From positions 70,182-102,623 of the forward strand of contig CAZWEM010000011.1 of NCBI GenBank assembly GCA_964632315.1: a stretch of 32,442 nucleotides of DNA, in the 5' to 3' direction. Numbering within the stretch: position 1 is the first letter of the stretch; every line of letters begins with the position of its first letter. The position numbers were made by a program, and so were the translations under genes. Under the pieces are notes generated by a model that was given only the letters and a program-made list of their open reading frames with translations, was not told the origin of the DNA and made no database searches. The DNA comes from an uncultured archaeon (lineage in GTDB: Archaea; Asgardarchaeota; Lokiarchaeia; Sigyniarchaeales; SOKP01). This document shows, one piece after another, positions 1 to 22,370 of the stretch.

Positions 1-522
1 ATGAAATCTAAAAAAATTGTATTAATGGGTTTAGATAATAGCGGAAAATCTTCAATTGTATTATCATTAGAGGGAAGCAAAAATCTTCCAGCATTTTTTA
101 ACATGAAACCTACTAAAAATTATCAAATTAGAAAATTTAATCTCTTAGAAACTGATTTTAGAATATGGGATTTTGGTGGACAGGAACAGTACCGAAAAGA
201 TTATTTACTTAAATTTAAAGAGAATATCAAAGAAACCGATAAATTTATTTTTGTTCTCGACATTCAAGATGTTGTTCGATACGATCTTGCCCTAGATTAT
301 TTAAGGAAGGTTAGCCAATTATTAATTGAAAATGATATAAAAGTCGAATTTTCGATCTTTCTTCATAAATTCGACCCAGATTTGCATATTACCAATTCAA
401 AAATAACTGATGAAAGAATAGATGAATTAATTAAAAAAATTGAGATTGTAATGAATAACAATTTGGAATATGATCTATTTAAAACGACTATTTATGCAAC
501 CTTTCAAAAATCGGAAATTTAA
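1..522 (+). CDS. Small GTPase, Rag/Gtr- or Arf-like (Asgard-type); may extend upstream of the window edge
   Basis: G1 GLDNSGKS (Arf-like), G2 PT, G3 WDFGGQ, and G4 HKFD (HKxD as in Rag/Gtr GTPases). The ORF begins at base 1, so the true start cannot be verified. Confidence 0.88.
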   Translation: MKSKKIVLMGLDNSGKSSIVLSLEGSKNLPAFFNMKPTKNYQIRKFNLLETDFRIWDFGGQEQYRKDYLLKFKENIKETDKFIFVLDIQDVVRYDLALDYLRKVSQLLIENDIKVEFSIFLHKFDPDLHITNSKITDERIDELIKKIEIVMNNNLEYDLFKTTIYATFQKSEI

Positions 523-552: not shown

Positions 553-3522
553 ATGAGTAATATTTCAAGTTATGTTAAAAGAGATATTTATGAATACTTA
601 ATATTTGGACTTGCGTTATTCCTAACATATCTTTCAAGTTTATACAGTTATCTCTTATTTCATTCTATAGCAGAGTTATTTAGCATTATAATTTCCGGTG
701 GGATTTTTTTAATAGGGTGGAACACGCGGAAATACATCAAAAGTTCCTTTTTCTTGGTGTTGGGTGTTTCCTTTATATTCATTGGGGTTATTGATTTACT
801 CCATACTCTCGCATATTCTGGAATGGGGGTTTTTCCCGCCCCAAGCTCTAATTTAGCAGCCCAATTATGGATCGCAGGTCGTTATGTGAAAGCTTTTTCT
901 TTTGTCTTAGCCTTATCTCTAATTCATAAAAAAGTAAATCCCAAATTTTTATTGGTTTTTTATGTTTTCTTGGATACAATCCTAATTTGGCTAATATTCG
1001 GGGGATTTTTTCCAACAACGTATATTGAAGGTTTTGGACTGACTGGATTTAAAATAGCGAGTGAATATGTTGTAAATATCATCTTTGGTCTATCGTTAGG
1101 AATTTTACTTATGATTAGATATGAATTTAGTAGAAAAGTTTTCATTTATTTGGTTATTTTCTTGGTTTCCACTATCATATCTGAACTCTCTTTTACTTTA
1201 TACGTGAATGTGTTTGACTTCTTCAACTTTATGGGGCACATATTCAAGATAATTGCTTTTTATTTCGTATATAAGGCTATTATTGAAACCGGCTTGGAGG
1301 AACCTTTTCAATTAATGTTTAGGAAGCTTAAAGCAAGTGAAAAATCATTACAAAGTCAAACAGACCATTTAAGGCTCGCATATTCTGAATCTGACCAGAT
1401 CTTTAATGCCGCACTTCCACTAAGAATTATAAATACTAAATTTGAGATAATTAAAGTTAATGAAACTTTCTGCGATTTATTTAATATTAAACCTGAGGAA
1501 GTAATTGGGAAAAAATGTAATGAGATATTTCCTCAAAGTTACTGCAATACTGAAGAATGTGCACTTAAAAGGATTCAGATTTTAAAGAGAGCAGTAGAAC
1601 ATGAAAGTGAGTTTGAATTAGATAATGGTACGAAATTATCATTGATTGTCAACTCAGTTCCATATAATGATAATTTTGGTGAATTTAAAGGAATTATTCA
1701 AAATTATACAAATATTTCGAATTTAAAAGAAGCAGAATTAAGTTTAAAACAGTCAGAGGAAAAATATAGATACTTAATCAACAATTCTCTAGAAGGAGTT
1801 TGGGTTTTAGATACTGAAGCTAAAACCGTTCTAGTGAATCCTTCAATGGCAAGCATGCTAGGATATACTGTTGATGAGATGATGGGAAAGTCATTTTTTA
1901 CATTCATGGATAATAGAGCAAGAGAGTCAGCAGCGATTTACTTCAAGGAGCGAATGGAGGGCATACAAGAAGAACACATGTTTAGATTCCAACATAAAGA
2001 TGGAAACGATATATATACTTCATTACGGGCATCTCCAATTTTTGATAAAGATAACAAATTTAACGGAGCAATGGCATTTATTACGAATGTCACGAAACAA
2101 AAAAGAGCTCAAGACAATTTAAAGGAAGCAGAATTGAAATATCATACTGCTTTTGAAGAATCTCCAGATGGAATCGCAATCCTTGATTCAGATTCACTAA
2201 AACCTTTTGAATTTAATGATAGACTTTGTGATTTATTAGGTTATAGCAGATTAGAATTAAATGACTTGAAAGTACAAGATTTCGAAGATACTAACAATCC
2301 GATAAAAATGGAAGAACACCTAAAAAAAGTTTTAGAGAAGGGAATTGATAAATTTGAAACAAAATTTAAAACAAAATATGGTACCGTGAAAGAAATTCTA
2401 GTTACTACAAAACCGATCAAATTAGCAGGGAATACATATTATCAATCAATCTTCCGAGATATCACTGAAGAAAAGAATGCTCTCGAAAAAATTGAAGATA
2501 TGGCAAAATTTCCAGCTGAAGATCCGAATCCCGTGATGCGAGTAAGTAAAAATTATGTACTCTTAGCTAATAAAGCAAGTCAAGATATTTTTAAGGTAGA
2601 TGAAGGTAGTAAAATTCCCCCAATCTTAGTTGATAGGGTTCAAAGGGCATTTTCTGAGAAGAAAAGTGAAGAATTTGAAATTTTCATTAAAAATCAAGTA
2701 TATTCTCTTTTTATAGTTCCGATCGAGGGTTCAAATTATGCAAATATTTACGGAATGGACATTACGATGAGAAAGAAAGCTAAAGAAGATTTAGAGCGTT
2801 TTGTTACAACAGTTTCACATGAATTAAGAACTCCTATTTCCGTACTTGTTTTGAGTATTGAATTTTTAACTAATCATGCTGAACAATTAACTGAGGAATT
2901 AAAAAATCAAATAAACAATAACATTGAAAAAAATGTTTACCTCCTGAAAGATTTAATCGAGGATATCTTAGTACTCTCTCGAATTGATGAACAAAAGATT
3001 AAGATTGAATGGGAGGAATACCATCCATCAACTCTCATTGAAGAATTATTAAATTTGATGAAACCTATGGGTAAAGAAAAAAATTTTACATTTCAAGTTA
3101 AAGTACCCCAAAATCTAAAATTACATGGTGATCTAAAGAGAATGGAACAAGTGTTTAGAATCTTCATTGATAATGCAATGAAATATTCGAAAGACCATGG
3201 AAATATTATTATTCAAGCAACTGACAGTTATGTTGGAAATTATAATAAAGAGGAAAAAGATGGAGTGTTATTTGAAGTTATTGATAAAGGAATAGGAATT
3301 TCAGCGGAAGATTTACCTAGAATTTTTGATAGGTTTTATCGCTCTGAAGAAGTCACTGATATACCAGGTACGGGATTAGGATTATCAATAGCAAAAGAAT
3401 TAGTTAATCTACATGATGGTGATATTTTTGTTACCAGTGAATTAGGAAAAGGTACTAATTTTTCAATATTTTTACCACGGAATAAACAAAAGAACGAAAA
3501 TTATCAAAATTTTTCAAATTAA
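553..3522 (+). CDS. Membrane sensor histidine kinase: MASE3 + multiple PAS + HisKA + HATPase
   Basis: Hydrophobic N-terminal ~245 aa with MASE3 motifs (LLFHSIAELFS, DLLHTLAY, QLWIAGRY), then 3-4 PAS/PAC repeats, H-box VSHELRTP, N-box DNAMKYS, G-boxes DKGIGI and GTGLGLSI. Confidence 0.93.
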   Translation: MSNISSYVKRDIYEYLIFGLALFLTYLSSLYSYLLFHSIAELFSIIISGGIFLIGWNTRKYIKSSFFLVLGVSFIFIGVIDLLHTLAYSGMGVFPAPSSNLAAQLWIAGRYVKAFSFVLALSLIHKKVNPKFLLVFYVFLDTILIWLIFGGFFPTTYIEGFGLTGFKIASEYVVNIIFGLSLGILLMIRYEFSRKVFIYLVIFLVSTIISELSFTLYVNVFDFFNFMGHIFKIIAFYFVYKAIIETGLEEPFQLMFRKLKASEKSLQSQTDHLRLAYSESDQIFNAALPLRIINTKFEIIKVNETFCDLFNIKPEEVIGKKCNEIFPQSYCNTEECALKRIQILKRAVEHESEFELDNGTKLSLIVNSVPYNDNFGEFKGIIQNYTNISNLKEAELSLKQSEEKYRYLINNSLEGVWVLDTEAKTVLVNPSMASMLGYTVDEMMGKSFFTFMDNRARESAAIYFKERMEGIQEEHMFRFQHKDGNDIYTSLRASPIFDKDNKFNGAMAFITNVTKQKRAQDNLKEAELKYHTAFEESPDGIAILDSDSLKPFEFNDRLCDLLGYSRLELNDLKVQDFEDTNNPIKMEEHLKKVLEKGIDKFETKFKTKYGTVKEILVTTKPIKLAGNTYYQSIFRDITEEKNALEKIEDMAKFPAEDPNPVMRVSKNYVLLANKASQDIFKVDEGSKIPPILVDRVQRAFSEKKSEEFEIFIKNQVYSLFIVPIEGSNYANIYGMDITMRKKAKEDLERFVTTVSHELRTPISVLVLSIEFLTNHAEQLTEELKNQINNNIEKNVYLLKDLIEDILVLSRIDEQKIKIEWEEYHPSTLIEELLNLMKPMGKEKNFTFQVKVPQNLKLHGDLKRMEQVFRIFIDNAMKYSKDHGNIIIQATDSYVGNYNKEEKDGVLFEVIDKGIGISAEDLPRIFDRFYRSEEVTDIPGTGLGLSIAKELVNLHDGDIFVTSELGKGTNFSIFLPRNKQKNENYQNFSN

Positions 3523-3541: not shown

Positions 3542-4414
3542 ATGAGACCACTTGTATTAATAGTTGAAGATAATGTTGACTTGCTGTTTAATTTGGATTT
3601 AATTCTAAAATCAAATAACTATCAAACAATTATTGCAAAAAACGGAGTTGATGCCTTAGAAAAATTAAACACGTCAGATCTTAACCCCAACATCATTATT
3701 AGTGATATTTTAATGCCAAAAATGAATGGATATGAATTCTTTGAAAAGATTTCGAATGATCCACGTTGGCATAGAATTCCATTTATATTTCTTTCAGCTA
3801 AGGCAACTCCTGAAGATATTCGGCTTGGGAAATTACTTGGAGCAGACGACTATATTACAAAGCCGTTTGAGGAAAAAGATTTATTAGCTACCCTTACAGG
3901 ACGAATGAATAGGATTCAAAGAATTGAAAAAATAGACCAAAGTCTCTCCGATTTTAAACTTGATAAAACTGAAATTGAGAATATTCGAAAAGAGAATGAG
4001 TACTTACTTTTTGTCATTTGGGATGATAAATTAGGCCCAGAATTAAAGGATTTTTATCCAAAAAAAGAAAAATTTCATATACCACTTGACAATTTAGCTA
4101 ACCAACTCTTTTCAGCTGTAACTTCCATATATGGCCAAAATTCTATTAATAAAGCAGAGGGATTATTAATTAACATTAAGAACGTCGATTTTTATGGTTA
4201 TGTATATTTTGATGCTTATCCAAGTGAGAGTGAAAGATATGGTGAAAAACAGTACATGCTTGCGTTTCTCTCACCCTTTATAAGTTACCTGCATTCTCTA
4301 GAAATTAAATCTGTGCTTGAAGAAATTTCAATAAAGTTAAAAGAAAATTTAGGCTGGAGTATTAAGAATTATTGGAAACTATTACAAGAACTCATGCTTG
4401 ACGTATTAGATTAA
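3542..4414 (+). CDS. Response regulator: REC domain + C-terminal uDENN/longin-like domain
   Basis: REC motifs VEDN, ISDILMP (phosphoacceptor Asp), FLSAK, KPF. The C-terminal ~135 aa start LLFVIWDDKLGPEL and show no HTH. Confidence 0.88.
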   Translation: MRPLVLIVEDNVDLLFNLDLILKSNNYQTIIAKNGVDALEKLNTSDLNPNIIISDILMPKMNGYEFFEKISNDPRWHRIPFIFLSAKATPEDIRLGKLLGADDYITKPFEEKDLLATLTGRMNRIQRIEKIDQSLSDFKLDKTEIENIRKENEYLLFVIWDDKLGPELKDFYPKKEKFHIPLDNLANQLFSAVTSIYGQNSINKAEGLLINIKNVDFYGYVYFDAYPSESERYGEKQYMLAFLSPFISYLHSLEIKSVLEEISIKLKENLGWSIKNYWKLLQELMLDVLD

Positions 4415-4419
4415 TATAT

Positions 4420-5346
4420 CTAATAATCATAGAGGTCAGTCGATAAATATCTTTCGCCTGTATCACACACAACGAAAACTATATTCTCATCTTGTTCAAA
4501 TTGCTGCGATGCCATATGAATTGCTGCCCAAGCGATCGCTCCGGAACTTATTCCTGCAAAAATTCCTTCTTTTTTAGCTAAATTCCGAGCGGTTTCTACA
4601 GCATCATCATATTTTACCATTATTACCTCATCATAAATTTCCGTATTTAAAACTTCGGGAATAAATCCAGCCCCTATACCTTGAATTTTGTGAGGTCCTG
4701 CTGCACCTCCTGAAAGAACGGGTGAATCAAATGGTTCCACAGCGAAAATCTTGACCCTAGCTCCAACAGAATTCTTTAAGATCTCTCCAACTCCAGTTAT
4801 TGTACCTCCAGTACCAACCCCTGCAACAAAAGCATCTATTCGCCCATCTAAATCGTTAAAAATTTCTTTTGCTGTAGTTTGACGATGAATTTCTGGGTTT
4901 GCTTGATTCTTAAATTGTTGGGGGATAAAGACATTTTGTTTTTCTTTTGCTAATTCTTCAGCCTTTACTATAGCCCCTTTCATCCCTCCTTCTTTAGGAG
5001 TTAGAATCACTTCTGCACCATATGCCTTCAAAACTTTAACTCTTTCTAAAGATACTCCTTCGGGCATTGTCAAGATCAATTTATAGCCCTTCGCCGCGCA
5101 TATCATAGCTAAACCAATTCCAGTATTTCCAGATGTAGGCTCAACAATCGTACTCTCACTTGTTATTAAGCCTTCCTCTTCTGCTTTTTGTATCATAGCA
5201 AAACCGATCCTATCCTTCACACTTCCTCCTGGATTAAAATACTCTAATTTAGCATAGAGATTTGGTTTAATTCCTTTCGAGATCCGATTTAATTTCACTA
5301 AAGGAGTCCTACCAATTGTTTCAATTATATTATTATATATTCTCAT
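4420..5346 (-). CDS. cysK: Cysteine synthase A (O-acetylserine sulfhydrylase)
   Basis: PLP-lysine motif NPGGSVKDR, EPTSGNTG, GVGTGGT, HKIQGIG, GISSGA, DTGERYLST. Confidence 0.96.
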   Translation of the reverse strand: MRIYNNIIETIGRTPLVKLNRISKGIKPNLYAKLEYFNPGGSVKDRIGFAMIQKAEEEGLITSESTIVEPTSGNTGIGLAMICAAKGYKLILTMPEGVSLERVKVLKAYGAEVILTPKEGGMKGAIVKAEELAKEKQNVFIPQQFKNQANPEIHRQTTAKEIFNDLDGRIDAFVAGVGTGGTITGVGEILKNSVGARVKIFAVEPFDSPVLSGGAAGPHKIQGIGAGFIPEVLNTEIYDEVIMVKYDDAVETARNLAKKEGIFAGISSGAIAWAAIHMASQQFEQDENIVFVVCDTGERYLSTDLYDY

Positions 5347-5383
5347 TCATATCACTACTCTTTATTTTGTACTTTAATTTATT

Positions 5384-6214
5384 TTAAATTCCTCCCCCAT
5401 AACTTCCATAATATACTTCTATGTCATCTTCTGCTTTATTTGTAATATTTAATTGGCTTTCTAAATTTTTAAGCCTTTCTTCTAATTTTGATATCGCAAT
5501 AGATAAAGGATCGGGAAGATCACCATGTCTGAGATCGACTCTTTTAATTTTCTCTCCTTCCCTTGAGATAATCCTTCCAGGAACCCCTACAACTACAGAA
5601 TTATCTGGAACACTGTGGATTACCACTGAGTTAGCTCCTATCCTAACATTGTTGCCAACCGTGACTGGACCTAAAATCTTTGCTCCAGTACCTATCACTA
5701 CGTTATCTCCGAGCGTAGGATGCCGTTTTTCGTGCTTTAATTCTGTACCACCAAGTACTACTCCAGCATATATGGTGACATTATTTCCTATTATAGAAGT
5801 TTCTCCAATAACCACTCCACCTCCATGATCTATAAAAAAATCACTTCCTATATCTGCTCCAGGGTGAATTTCGATTCCAGTTAATTCACGGGCAACTTCT
5901 GATAGGTATCTTGGAATAAATGGCATATTTAATTTATTAAGAAAATGTGCAACTCGATGGAGTACTATAGCTTTAACTCCAGGATAACTAGTAATTACTT
6001 CCATTAAAGAACGTGCTGCAGGATCTTTTGTAAAGGCAGCTCTTACATCTGATATAAAAAAATCTAGAATTCGCTGAAGATCAGAATCCACATTTGTAAG
6101 ATCTAAATCAAATGTCTTGAAATCTAGACTCATCAAGCAATCGACACAATAACTATGGGAACTTTTATTAGAGATTTTTTTACCACAATTTAGGCATTTT
6201 AAAAATCCTTCCAT
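5384..6214 (-). CDS. cysE: Serine O-acetyltransferase with N-terminal CxxC...CxxC extension
   Basis: DPAA, YPG, TGIEIHPGA, FIDHG, KRHPTLGDNV hexapeptide repeats, VGVPGR. Directly upstream of cysK. Confidence 0.94.
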   Translation of the reverse strand: MEGFLKCLNCGKKISNKSSHSYCVDCLMSLDFKTFDLDLTNVDSDLQRILDFFISDVRAAFTKDPAARSLMEVITSYPGVKAIVLHRVAHFLNKLNMPFIPRYLSEVARELTGIEIHPGADIGSDFFIDHGGGVVIGETSIIGNNVTIYAGVVLGGTELKHEKRHPTLGDNVVIGTGAKILGPVTVGNNVRIGANSVVIHSVPDNSVVVGVPGRIISREGEKIKRVDLRHGDLPDPLSIAISKLEERLKNLESQLNITNKAEDDIEVYYGSYGGGI

Positions 6215-21071: not shown

Positions 21072-22370
21072 ATGAATCATCAAGAAATATTAGATGAAGT
21101 GATTCAAGAAAATGAAGGTAAGATTGGTATAATATGTATCAACTGCCTTATTGTTAGACTTCGATTTAAGGAATTAGAAGAATTCACTTCTAAAAATAAT
21201 ATCATTTTACCTTCTGATAAACAATTAACAAAGTTAGATTATCTAGATCATATCATTGTTCATTATCATCAAAAAATTAAGGATGATCCTCAACTTCAAG
21301 AAAAATATCAAGATCATTTAACTTTCATTGCTGAGGAGCTATTAAGTGATAAAAATATACAAAAATATCTTTCCCGTTTCGACTTTATAGCTGTGCATGA
21401 GTTGATTGAAGCATTTGCTGATTATTGTGCAGATATGGGGATATCGGTATACGATACTTCATACATGGAGGAGGATGAATTTAATACCGACTTGTATCTT
21501 ATTAAAAAAAAACCATTTTTACGAATAGAGGCAGTTTTTGTGCGTACTGGAGCCCAAATGTCTAAAGAACAATACAAAAATACTTTTTATGTATTAAATA
21601 AAGCCTCAAAAATCGCTACTTGGACTGTTTTTGTAACCACTCCAAAAGGAGTTCATAATATTGGATTAAAAAGATTAATTACTGATATGGAAAAATTAAA
21701 CGTTTGGTTTTATGTGGTTGATCCCGTAGAACAAAGAGTATTAGGCATTACAAAAGGAAAAAAATCTAAAGATCAAGAAACTGATTTAAGGGATAAATAT
21801 CTTCGTAAAGTACCAAAAGAACCCATTCGAGCTCCTTCAAGGTTAGTGAATATATCGAATTACCAATTTAGTGAATCAGATTCTTATGATCCCAAGATGT
21901 TTACATTATATGGAATATTGCCCAAGCAAATTGCCATTAAAAGAGAGAAATTAATTGTTAGGAAACCGAAATACCGAGAGATTTTTCGAACATTATTGAT
22001 TATTAATAAAATTTCGGGTTTACCATTGATTACTCATTCTAGAGAAGATTTAAAAATTGATCAAGAGTTAATTTCGGGATTTCTAAGTGCCATGGATTCC
22101 TTCATTACTGAATTAAGTGGAGCAAGTGGAATGTCCGAAATAAATTATAAAGGATTTTATATTATTGGAGAAGTAGGAGATGCTGTAAAAGTTGCTTTAA
22201 TTCTTACAGAACCTGCTTCAAAAAGTTTGAAGGAAAGACTAATTTATTTTCTAAAAGATTTCGAAGATCGCTATGATGAAGAGATAAAAGTATTTTCAAA
22301 GACGGGGAATACAAAAGTTTTTGACGAGAATATAATAATCTCCGATATAAAGGACATTTTGGATGTATAA
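21072..22370 (+). CDS. Hypothetical protein: central restriction-endonuclease-like fold + C-terminal Asgard longin-like domain
   Basis: The C-terminus LLIINKISGLPL...DQELISGFLSAMDSFITEL...EINYKGFYI...FEDRY fits the Asgard longin pattern. The centre has DLYL...EAVFVR...VFVTT...WFYVVD. Confidence 0.75.
   Translation: MNHQEILDEVIQENEGKIGIICINCLIVRLRFKELEEFTSKNNIILPSDKQLTKLDYLDHIIVHYHQKIKDDPQLQEKYQDHLTFIAEELLSDKNIQKYLSRFDFIAVHELIEAFADYCADMGISVYDTSYMEEDEFNTDLYLIKKKPFLRIEAVFVRTGAQMSKEQYKNTFYVLNKASKIATWTVFVTTPKGVHNIGLKRLITDMEKLNVWFYVVDPVEQRVLGITKGKKSKDQETDLRDKYLRKVPKEPIRAPSRLVNISNYQFSESDSYDPKMFTLYGILPKQIAIKREKLIVRKPKYREIFRTLLIINKISGLPLITHSREDLKIDQELISGFLSAMDSFITELSGASGMSEINYKGFYIIGEVGDAVKVALILTEPASKSLKERLIYFLKDFEDRYDEEIKVFSKTGNTKVFDENIIISDIKDILDV

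What the first reader, a model, noticed from the sequence alone, without database searches (positions are those of the whole stretch)
4001..4414. Response-regulator output domain resembles the C9orf72/NPRL2/SMCR8-type uDENN (longin) fold
Seen: YLLFVIWDDKLGPELKDFYP, and later YFDAYPSESERYGEKQYMLAFL. From memory, the first matches the beta1-(W/F)D-x-x-x-GP-beta2 hairpin that opens uDENN/longin domains (C9orf72 FAYWDNILGP; NPRL2 FSEFHPTLGP). The second recalls the D...ARG..R...aromatic-hydrophobic strand of FLCN/SMCR8. A REC-uDENN fusion is not a standard response-regulator architecture.
Basis: partly seen in the sequence, partly recalled or inferred. Interest (0 to 1): 0.75.

Follow-up and report, generated by a model that had tools for sequence, protein, structure and literature searches.

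The report
Receiver-longin regulator beside Rag-like GTPase
An Asgard archaeon fuses a bacterial-type phosphorylation receiver to a longin domain of the folliculin/NPRL2/SMCR8 kind and keeps it in a conserved gene cassette with a sensor kinase and a Rag/Arf-like small GTPase; this gives a testable regulator-target pair, although the fusion type is already in the literature.

Summary
ORF 3542-4414 (+) encodes a 290-aa response regulator. It has an intact receiver domain and a 137-aa C-terminal domain with no Pfam or PDB sequence match. AlphaFold models that domain as a longin fold (pLDDT 84.7). An exhaustive structure search ranks human folliculin first (Z 13.2). Lst4, a Lokiarchaeota longin, GATOR1, C9orf72-SMCR8 and DENND1 follow, all above SNARE longins and roadblocks. 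The family keeps W-D-x3-G-P with C9orf72's spacing, and an Arg in the beta4-beta5 loop with the D-x3-R-G spacing of folliculin Arg164.

New support for a function:
- In 25 of 27 informative related loci a small GTPase lies beside the gene, even when the gene order changes.
- This genome holds a second paralogous cassette.
- It also holds a single protein that fuses GTPase, longin, PAS and kinase.

Most likely the kinase phosphorylates Asp55 and so controls a longin module that acts on the cassette's Rag-like GTPase, probably as a GAP. No activity was tested.

The architecture is not new: Liu et al. (2020 preprint) reported NPRL2-like longin fusions to two-component domains in Asgard archaea. 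This scan has also found the same cassette in several other genomes.

The parts
1..522 (+). Rag/Arf-like small GTPase, G domain only (173 aa as read). It has a GLDNSGKS P-loop, WDFGGQ switch II and an HKFD G4 motif. Its 5' end abuts a 100-N gap, so the true start is uncertain.
   Evidence: Pfam Gtr1_RagA E 2.8e-19 and Arf E 6.1e-18. Best solved relatives are Lokiarchaeota RagA-like GTPases 8yl2 (E 1.8e-19) and 8zla/9m28, then Arl6 and RagD/C. The gap is shown.
553..3522 (+). Membrane sensor histidine kinase (989 aa): MASE3, three PAS domains, HisKA, HATPase_c. It starts 30 nt after the GTPase stop.
   Evidence: Pfam MASE3 E 6.7e-78, PAS_9 E 4.8e-39, HisKA E 8.2e-12, HATPase_c E 2.7e-27. ORF coordinates.
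3542..4414 (+). Receiver-longin response regulator (290 aa plus stop). It starts 19 nt after the kinase stop.
3554..3895 (+). Receiver (REC) domain, residues 5-118. Asp55 (3704-3706) is the predicted phospho-acceptor. E9/D10, S85 and K107 are also present.
   Evidence: PF00072 E 1.9e-23. D55, E9, D10 and K107 are kept in 90% or more of the 26 homologues. IISDILMP confirmed.
3872..3991 (+). Long helix continuing REC alpha5 (residues 111-136), a low-confidence hinge (138-140) and a short helix (142-150) that link REC to the longin domain.
   Evidence: Full-length AlphaFold model: pLDDT 81.4, pTM 0.50, pLDDT below 50 at residues 138-140.
4001..4411 (+). Longin domain, residues 154-290: beta1 154-161, beta2 165-172, alpha1 182-197, beta3 208-212, beta4 217-227, beta5 235-244, alpha2 249-267, alpha3 274-289.
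   Evidence: AlphaFold models and fold searches.
4019..4039 (+). W160-D161-D162-K-L-G165-P166. The WD sits at the end of beta1 and the GP at the start of beta2.
   Evidence: Conservation. The position matches the GP and WD motifs of GAP-type longins described in PMC12290439.
4235..4237 (+). Arg232 codon, in the middle of the beta4-beta5 loop. This is the candidate arginine finger.
   Evidence: It is invariant in 26 homologues and present in 81 of 113 representative clusters. It aligns with the Arg of ARGG in a folliculin-like Asgard longin family. The spacing matches folliculin D160...R164-G165...Y170.

Best explanation
The gene encodes a two-component response regulator whose output is a stand-alone longin domain of the folliculin/NPRL2/SMCR8/C9orf72 type. 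It is the last gene of a co-oriented cassette: Rag/Arf-like GTPase, MASE3-PAS histidine kinase, REC-longin.

Proposed mechanism:
1. The membrane kinase senses a signal through its MASE3 and PAS domains.
2. It phosphorylates Asp55 of the receiver.
3. The change passes through the long alpha5 linker helix and alters the pairing or exposure of the longin domain.
4. The longin domain binds the cassette's GTPase and sets its nucleotide state. Most likely it stimulates GTP hydrolysis, with Arg232 next to the WD/GP pocket, as folliculin Arg164, NPRL2 Arg78 and SMCR8 Arg147 do.

Shown here: the domain composition, the fold class, the conserved motifs and their places in the secondary structure, the conserved linkage to a GTPase, and GTPase-longin fusions.

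Inferred only: phosphotransfer from this kinase, physical binding to this GTPase, the direction of regulation (GAP), and a homodimeric working form.
For: Fold:
- The model has pLDDT 84.7 and pTM 0.84 with longin topology.
- Folliculin is the top hit of 48,161 chains: Z 13.2, rmsd 2.3 A over 130 residues. Lst4 scores 12.1, the Lokiarchaeota Roadblock-Longin protein 11.9-14.0, GATOR1 11.0-11.7, C9orf72-SMCR8 11.0 and DENND1A/B 10.5. SNARE longins reach at most 9.9 and roadblocks about 8.
- ESM Atlas neighbours are Asgard clusters that partly carry PF11704 or PF06218, plus eukaryotic SMCR8, Avl9 and DENND11.

Motifs:
- WDxxxGP is nearly invariant and sits at the beta1/beta2 junction. R232 sits in the beta4-beta5 loop.
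- PMC12290439 states that the GP motif is specific to GAP longins and lies next to the arginine finger.
- hhalign links this family to a folliculin-like Asgard longin family (probability 70%, E 3.9e-5) and aligns R232 with the Arg of its ARGG motif. All 31 members of that family match PF11704 below threshold.

Linkage:
- 25 of 27 related genome loci with enough flank carry a small GTPase beside the gene. It lies upstream with a kinase between, directly downstream, or convergent.
- This genome has a paralogous cassette.
- 3 of 150 representative clusters fuse a small GTPase directly to this longin.
- A 1125-aa protein in this genome carries an Arf-like GTPase, this longin, PAS domains and a kinase ATPase domain.
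- The GTPase and REC-longin trees share their main clades.

The receiver's catalytic residues are intact.
Against: - No sequence-level membership was found. P0001 has no Pfam hit in the domain, and only 3 of 113 relatives touch PF11704 weakly. Profiles of the domain find no PDB sequence.
- Residue-level 3D equivalence of R232 with folliculin R164 could not be checked, because no coordinates or structural alignments are available.
- R232 is kept in only 72% of the wider family.
- Eukaryotic longin GAPs work as heterodimers of two different longin proteins, and the cassette encodes only one.
- Most longin platforms (TRAPP, Mon1-Ccz1, DENN) are exchange factors, not GAPs.
- Tree congruence and conserved gene order are partly explained by shared descent.
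- Two loci with ample flank (L030, L034) show no GTPase.
- No expression data were found.
Confidence: 0.55

Rival explanations
1. The longin domain does act on the cassette GTPase, but as a nucleotide exchange factor, or as a nucleotide-state-specific platform or effector that recruits or sequesters the GTPase. It does not act as a GAP. Phosphorylation would control binding, not catalysis.
For: The fold and linkage evidence is the same. DENND1A/B, TRAPP, Mon1-Ccz1 and CPLANE longins, which are exchange factors, also match at Z 9-10.5. PMC13408092 notes that roadblock and longin platforms mostly act as GEFs and that RomR-RomX is an effector. The Arg is lost in 28% of the wider family.
Against: The GP motif is reported to be absent from non-GAP longins such as DENND and TRAPP proteins (PMC12290439). 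The best structural match is the catalytic GAP subunit folliculin. R232 is invariant in the orthologous group.
Confidence: 0.27
2. The longin domain has a target other than the neighbouring GTPase, for example another longin or roadblock protein, a membrane or a SNARE-like partner. The GTPase is a neighbour by inherited gene order, or it acts upstream of the kinase.
For: Much of the synteny lies in one clade, where CysRS, AsnC, CysK and CysE flanks are conserved as well. That shows inherited order. The genome encodes many GTPases and longins. Tran et al. note that MK-D1 GTPase genes generally do not lie in operons with roadblock or longin genes (PMC10933270).
Against: The GTPase stays adjacent when the order and orientation change (L003, L031, L033, L035, L036) and in the paralogous cassette, while the other flanks change. 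Direct GTPase-longin fusions exist. No other GTPase was found in the roughly 12 kb of remaining flank of each locus.
Confidence: 0.13
3. The C-terminal domain is not a longin domain. It would instead be another alpha/beta sensor or DNA-binding fold (GAF, PAS, profilin-like), and the resemblance comes from a model artefact.
For: The model rests on only 23 aligned sequences. A few LOV/PAS and LuxR-type ligand-domain chains appear low in the Foldseek list at E above 0.01.
Against: The model has pLDDT 84.7 and pTM 0.84, and the same secondary structure appears in two independent runs. The top 30 or so rows of three searches are all longin or roadblock proteins. No helix-turn-helix or GAF family matched by sequence.
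Confidence: 0.03

Closest known systems
Asgard 'NPRL2-like longin' domains fused to two-component signalling domains (Liu et al., bioRxiv 10.1101/2020.10.19.343400, Fig. 5c; published in Nature 2021)
   Same: The lineage and the type of architecture are the same: a longin domain resembling NPRL2 joined to prokaryotic two-component domains. The authors also proposed that two-component systems stand where mTOR signalling stands in eukaryotes.
   Different: The paper gives the fusion one sentence and one figure panel. In the text I could read it does not describe the fixed GTPase-kinase-REC-longin cassette, the WDxxxGP and Arg motifs of this family, or the GTPase fusions. I could not confirm that this exact family is among their examples, because no supplements are held.
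Eukaryotic longin-domain GAP complexes: FLCN-FNIP (RagC/D), GATOR1 NPRL2-NPRL3 (RagA/B) and C9orf72-SMCR8 (Arf/Rab), together with the GP-motif Asgard longins of PMC12290439
   Same: The longin fold is shared, with folliculin as the best structural match (Z 13.2). So are the GP motif at the start of beta2, a WD five residues before the G as in C9orf72, an Arg in the beta4-beta5 loop with folliculin-like D-x3-R-G spacing, and a Rag/Arf-like GTPase as the likely client.
   Different: No DENN or NPRL2 C-terminal module follows. There is no second longin partner in the cassette. Input comes from a receiver domain rather than from lysosomal scaffolds. No significant sequence match to PF11704 or PF06218 was found. 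Activity is untested.
Lokiarchaeota Roadblock-Longin protein, longin domain dimer (PDB 8yqg)
   Same: It gives the best pairwise structural match in the Foldseek-seeded comparison: Z 14.0, rmsd 2.8 A over 131 residues. It is also from an Asgard archaeon, and its longin domain crystallised as a dimer according to the entry title.
   Different: Its partner domain is a roadblock domain, not a receiver. Sequence identity is only 7-12%, and profiles of this family do not find it by sequence. I found no paper on it.
Myxococcus MglA-MglB polarity module with receiver-domain proteins (RomR-RomX, Frz system)
   Same: A prokaryotic small Ras-like GTPase is regulated by a roadblock-superfamily dimer, with receiver-domain proteins and a phosphorelay feeding in (PMC6785124, PMC13408092).
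   Different: MglB is a separate roadblock protein, not a longin fused to the receiver. The GTPase is MglA-type, not Rag/Arf-like. RomR's output is not a longin domain.
Actinobacterial conservon (CvnA-D): sensor-kinase-like protein, roadblock protein, DUF742 protein and small GTPase in one operon (from my own knowledge; not checked here)
   Same: An operon joins a membrane histidine-kinase-like sensor, a roadblock-superfamily protein and a small GTPase.
   Different: There is no receiver domain and no longin domain, the GTPase is MglA-like, and the phylum is different.

Membership tests
Response regulator receiver (REC, PF00072) | Significant match to the REC profile over its full length | tested here: met
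   E 1.9e-23, 83.1 bits against a cut-off of 30.2, residues 5-118 on profile positions 1-110 of 111.
Response regulator receiver (REC, PF00072) | Phospho-acceptor Asp with the acidic pair, Ser/Thr and Lys of the active site | tested here: met
   E9-D10, D55 (IISDILMP), S85-A86 and K107-P108 are present. D55, E9, D10 and K107 are kept in at least 90% of 26 homologues. Assignment to the CheY positions is by pattern and from my own knowledge.
Longin domain fold | beta-beta-alpha-beta-beta-beta-alpha-alpha topology, with no N-terminal helix packed as in roadblock domains | tested here: met
   DSSP of the model gives E15-22, E26-33, H43-58(+60-65), E69-73, E78-88, E96-105, H110-128, H135-148. The same elements appear in the full-length model. 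PMC10933270 describes this difference between longin and roadblock domains.
Longin domain fold | Structural similarity to solved longin domains well above background | tested here: met
   Z is 9-14 to more than 25 different longin entries, covering about 115-137 of 151 residues. The tool gives a typical best Z of 7-8 for models without a clear Foldseek match.
GAP-type longins (FLCN, NPRL2, SMCR8, C9orf72) | GP motif at the end of the beta1-beta2 loop or the start of beta2 | tested here: met
   G165-P166 open beta2 in the model. They are kept in 108 and 105 of 113 clusters. The motif is defined in PMC12290439.
GAP-type longins (FLCN, NPRL2, SMCR8, C9orf72) | Catalytic arginine finger next to the GP motif | tested here: inconclusive
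   A conserved Arg (R232) lies in the beta4-beta5 loop. Its spacing, (D/S)228-x3-R232-x-G-x3-Y238, matches folliculin D160-x3-R164-G165-x4-Y170. It aligns with the ARGG Arg of a PF11704-like Asgard family. No residue-level structural superposition or distance to the GP motif could be computed.
GAP-type longins (FLCN, NPRL2, SMCR8, C9orf72) | Sequence membership in PF11704 (Folliculin) or PF06218 (NPR2) | tested here: not met
   The window's protein has no hit at E up to 10. A PF11704 search of this genome does not report this ORF. Only 3 of 113 relatives hit PF11704, the best at E 0.0014 and below the cut-off.
GAP-type longins (FLCN, NPRL2, SMCR8, C9orf72) | Heterodimer of two longin proteins forming the catalytic pocket | not testable with these tools
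   No second longin gene lies in the cassette. No multimer prediction is available. A homodimer is possible, as for the 8yqg dimer, but was not tested.
GAP-type longins (FLCN, NPRL2, SMCR8, C9orf72) | Stimulates GTP hydrolysis by a Rag or Arf family GTPase | not testable with these tools
   This needs biochemistry. Only genomic linkage to a Rag/Arf-like GTPase is shown.
DENN-domain proteins (uDENN-cDENN-dDENN) | Central and downstream DENN modules following the longin (uDENN) module | tested here: not met
   The protein ends at residue 290, directly after longin helix alpha3. No DENN family matched. It is therefore a stand-alone longin domain, not a DENN protein.

The most novel reading that the evidence does not exclude
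The cassette is a working, phosphorylation-gated longin GAP for a Rag-like GTPase. It would be a prokaryote-style forerunner of FLCN/GATOR1 nutrient signalling, in which a two-component kinase takes the place of the lysosomal amino-acid sensors. One longin homodimer would supply both the C9orf72-like WD/GP half and the SMCR8/FLCN-like Arg half of the catalytic pocket. The repeated flanking by CysRS, an AsnC/Lrp regulator, CysK and CysE (19 of 37 loci) could mean that the input or output concerns cysteine or sulfur amino-acid status.
Probability: 0.3. Interest if true: 0.8.

Novelty: new member of a known kind. Interest (0 to 1): 0.5.

Why it matters
How the many eukaryote-like small GTPases of Asgard archaea are switched is an open question, and no GAP or GEF for them has been shown. 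This cassette names a specific three-protein set: sensor kinase, receiver-longin and Rag-like GTPase. All three are small or soluble enough to express, and clear point-mutant controls exist (D55, G165/P166, R232). A positive result would show that longin-domain GAP chemistry predates eukaryotes. It would also show that this chemistry was first wired to two-component phosphorelays, which bears on the origin of Rag/mTORC1-type nutrient signalling.

Tried and rejected
- Sequence searches for the C-terminal domain found nothing useful. These were Pfam on the protein, on 23 close homologues and on 113 representative domains, and phmmer or profile searches of PDB sequences. The chance hits were anthrax protective antigen over a linker stretch at E 0.2 and a designed helical protein at E 1.1.
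- A bridge to folliculin through an Asgard intermediate family (A4) worked only in part. hhalign A3 against A4 gave probability 70%, and A4 against PF11704 stayed below threshold in all 31 members. The A4 profile found no folliculin chain in the PDB.
- The language-model Atlas search gave only unnamed Promethearchaeota clusters at scores of 0.77 or lower, which is a lead only.
- No RNA holder was listed for the cassette, and the one run listed is not on record as RNA.
- No paper was found on the 8yqg Roadblock-Longin protein or the LokiRag structures. The Nature version of Liu et al. and the Jansen and Hurley review are not held.
- The '1 TGA' flagged in the paralogue match is simply its stop codon at the end of the ORF.
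- I considered and rejected a DNA-binding output: no HTH family matched and the fold is longin. I also rejected a full DENN protein, because no cDENN or dDENN module is present.
- Tree congruence between the GTPase and REC-longin is reported as weak support only, because shared species history produces the same pattern.

Full report
**What is there.** Nucleotides 3542-4414 (+) form one ORF of 290 codons.
- Residues 5-118 are a full-length receiver domain (PF00072, E 1.9e-23).
- The phospho-acceptor Asp55 is present, with E9/D10, S85 and K107.
- Residues about 140-290 match no Pfam family and no PDB sequence, whether searched alone or as a profile.
- No competing ORF of note lies on either strand under the gene.

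**Family.**
- A word-indexed search of 5.8 billion proteins found 49 relatives. All are about 290-300 aa, and all but one fragment carry PF00072. The sources that name them call them Lokiarchaeota, Promethearchaeota or Helarchaeota.
- An exhaustive HMMER search of 1.84 billion cluster representatives found 152 clusters at E up to 0.001.
- Of the 150 clusters listed, 85 carry a receiver domain before this domain and 3 carry a small GTPase before it. Most of the rest are fragments or short stand-alone forms.
- Other partners include hybrid kinase-REC-longin proteins, RsbRD_N and TPR.
- Conservation across 113 full-length domains is concentrated in W160 (109/113), D161, G165 (108), P166 (105), P173, F223-D224, R232 (81) and M239.

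**Fold.**
- AlphaFold2 on the domain alignment gives pLDDT 84.7 and pTM 0.84, with the order beta-beta-alpha-beta-beta-beta-alpha-alpha. This is the longin topology.
- A full-length run repeats that result. It joins the domain to the receiver through a long helix that continues alpha5 and a low-confidence hinge. At pTM 0.50, the relative domain orientation is not determined.
- Foldseek against the PDB is led by GATOR1 and SEA complex NPRL chains, DENND10, a Lokiarchaeota Roadblock-Longin protein, Lst4 and FLCN-FNIP2.
- VIA-align on those candidates gives these Z scores:

| Match | Z |
|---|---|
| 8yqg (Lokiarchaeota longin) | 14.0 |
| Folliculin | 12.6-13.2 |
| Lst4 | 12.4 |
| GATOR1 chains | 10.4-11.7 |
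| C9orf72-SMCR8 | 11.0 |
| DENND1A/B | 10.5 |
| Ykt6 | 9.9 |
| Sec22b | 9.4 |
| TRAPP sedlin | 9.3 |
| MglB roadblock | 8.4 |

- An independent search of 48,161 PDB representatives, made without Foldseek, puts folliculin first (Z 13.2, rmsd 2.3 A, 130 residues) and gives the same order below it.
- I confirmed that chains 6nzd_H, 6ulg_L and the 8dhb chain are folliculin by searching a short folliculin peptide.
- ESM Atlas structural neighbours are Asgard clusters that partly carry PF11704 (23%) or PF06218 (19%), or are fused to Arf/Ras domains. Eukaryotic SMCR8, Avl9 and DENND11 also appear.
- The domain is therefore a longin domain, closest to the folliculin/FNIP/NPRL/SMCR8/C9orf72/DENN branch. 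The margin over SNARE and TRAPP longins is 1-3 Z units: consistent across searches, but modest.

**Motifs.**
- PMC12290439 describes a GP motif at the beta1-beta2 junction. It is present in FLCN, NPRL2, SMCR8 and C9orf72 and absent from FNIP2, NPRL3, DENND and TRAPP longins. It lies next to the arginine finger, and the authors found it in some Asgard longins. The paper also gives C9orf72 W33-D34 and G38-P39.
- In this protein, W160-D161 end beta1 and G165-P166 open beta2, with the same W-to-G spacing of five.
- R232 lies in the middle of the beta4-beta5 loop.
- The family consensus is D228-x3-R232-G-G-x3-[FY]238. The window's protein has S228 and Y233.
- In folliculin the corresponding stretch reads D160-S-L-A-R164-G165-F-Q-R-W-Y170.
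- The D-to-R and R-to-aromatic spacings therefore agree.
- hhalign aligns the family over the whole domain with a well-conserved stand-alone Asgard longin family, which is encoded on contig C6 of this genome (probability 70%, E 3.9e-5). WDDxxGP falls on YDHxLGP, and R232 falls on the Arg of ARGG.
- All 31 sampled members of that second family match PF11704 below threshold, the best at E 3.8e-5.
- This is a weak but coherent sequence chain that agrees with the fold result.
- That the beta1-beta2 and beta4-beta5 hairpin loops lie on the same edge of the sheet follows from the 2-1-5-4-3 antiparallel longin sheet. This is established knowledge and an inference here, because I could not measure distances.

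**Context.**
- Upstream and co-oriented lie a 173-aa Rag/Arf-like GTPase (1-522) and a MASE3-PAS-HisKA-HATPase kinase (553-3522). The gaps are 30 and 19 nt.
- The GTPase's nearest solved relatives are Lokiarchaeota RagA-like GTPases (8yl2, E 1.8e-19), followed by Arl6 and RagC/D.
- Five loci fetched by exact-protein look-up show the same string, ArsR-type HTH, GTPase, MASE3-PAS kinase, REC-longin, in four cases. In the Helarchaeota-named case the kinase precedes the regulator, and a Rab/Ras-like GTPase follows it after a 137-aa unknown ORF.
- Of 31 further loci from species-representative genomes, 27 have at least 3 kb of upstream flank, and 25 of those carry exactly one small GTPase next to the gene. 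It lies upstream across the kinase in most loci, 36-39 nt downstream in L031 and L033, and convergent 28-34 nt away in L035 and L036.
- No second GTPase appears in the remaining flanks, so this is not background density.
- L030 and L034 show no GTPase.
- The genome of the window holds a second, diverged cassette on contig C24: ArsR-type HTH, Rag-like GTPase, PAS kinase, REC-longin, followed by a KaiC-like ATPase.
- On contig C12 it also holds a 1125-aa protein carrying an Arf-like GTPase, a weak match to this longin, two PAS domains and a kinase ATPase domain.
- Trees of the GTPase and the REC-longin share their main groupings: the same 16-locus clade, the WIN+L001 pair, the L025/L029/L023/L032 clade and the L031+L033 pair. 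This is expected if the cassette is inherited as a unit, but species history alone could also produce it.

**Mechanism.**
- The best-supported reading is a kinase-controlled longin module acting on the cassette GTPase.
- The GP motif, the WD, the conserved loop Arg and folliculin as best structural match all favour GAP activity.
- A GEF or platform role cannot be excluded, because most longin platforms are exchange factors and the Arg is missing in 28% of the wider family.
- Only one longin gene is present, so a homodimer is the simplest working form. The title of 8yqg shows that an Asgard longin can dimerise.
- None of these steps was tested biochemically.

**Novelty.**
- Liu et al. [quoted passage not shown] They drew the inference about growth regulation.
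- PMC12290439 already links GP/Arg-bearing Asgard longins to eukaryotic GAP longins and asks which Asgard GTPases are their partners.
- Tran et al. (PMC10933270) do not mention receiver fusions, and they note that GTPase genes in MK-D1 are generally not in operons with roadblock or longin genes.
- I found no paper describing this particular cassette.
- Earlier follow-ups in this scan reached the same reading for the same cassette in other genomes.
- The finding is a new, well-documented member of a published kind of architecture. Its added value is the fixed GTPase partner.

**Caveats.**
- The window starts directly after a run of exactly 100 N in the contig. The GTPase's true start is therefore uncertain, as is the presence of the ArsR-type gene seen in 26 of 37 related loci.
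- The structural evidence rests on predicted models.
- Z-score differences among longin subclasses are small.

Noticed in passing
G000:C11, 100 N directly before window position 1 (L037:6083-6182): A run of exactly 100 N separates the AsnC-type regulator gene from the GTPase gene. Related loci carry a roughly 111-aa ArsR-type HTH gene at this spot (26 of 37 loci). That gene and the first GTPase codons may be hidden in an assembly gap or a withheld stretch.
   Followed up: partly
window 4420-6214 (-), L037:3797-6075 (-), and loci L001, L005-L021, L024: In the clade that holds the window, the cassette is flanked by CysRS and an AsnC/Lrp regulator upstream and by convergent CysK (PALP) and CysE-like (hexapeptide) genes downstream. 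CysK is present in 19 of 37 loci. In L004 the flank holds thioredoxin, glutaredoxin and thioredoxin-reductase genes instead. This could be inherited gene order or a hint of a link to cysteine or thiol metabolism.
   Followed up: partly
G000:C24:41380-45380 (L038:6381-10377, - strand): A second, diverged cassette lies in the same genome: a 217-aa ArsR/TrmB-type HTH protein, a 180-aa Rag-like GTPase, a 583-aa PAS histidine kinase and a 303-aa REC-longin. A KaiC-like ATPase gene follows (L038:5281-6012).
   Followed up: partly
G000:C12 (L039:2330-5707, - strand): A 1125-aa protein has about 145 unassigned N-terminal residues, an Arf-like GTPase (146-307), a weak match to this longin family (about residues 320-400), two PAS domains and a HATPase_c domain. 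It joins GTPase, longin and kinase in one chain.
   Followed up: partly
G000:C6 (L041:41-4000): A highly conserved 216-aa stand-alone longin has YDHTLGP and DSSARGG motifs, and all 31 sampled relatives match PF11704 below threshold. It lies divergently next to a 495-aa Rag-like GTPase and is followed by a PAS histidine kinase. This is another longin-GTPase-kinase neighbourhood.
   Followed up: partly
G000:C54 (L040:2334-3746, +): A 470-aa protein has an N-terminal folliculin-like longin (FDDDGP and DENARG motifs; PF11704 at 22.6 bits, just under the cut-off), a Gtr1/RagA-type GTPase and a C-terminal extension. It is a longin-Rag fusion of the kind reported for Asgard archaea.
   Followed up: no
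L003:7073-7486 (+): In the Helarchaeota-named locus, a 137-aa ORF with no Pfam match lies between the REC-longin gene and a Rab/Ras-like GTPase gene. By its size it could be a roadblock or longin partner.
   Followed up: no
L013 (DATKTW010000054.1): A contig carrying the full Asgard cassette is labelled as a 'Candidatus Nanopelagicaceae bacterium' MAG. In both trees it sits within tight clades of archaeal loci: sister to L011 in the REC-longin tree and to L006 in the GTPase tree. It is probably a mis-binned contig.
   Followed up: no
window 21072-22370 (+): The 432-aa ORF that another first-stage note calls a nuclease-longin fusion has no significant Pfam hit. The profile of the present longin family did not find it in the whole-genome search.
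   Followed up: no
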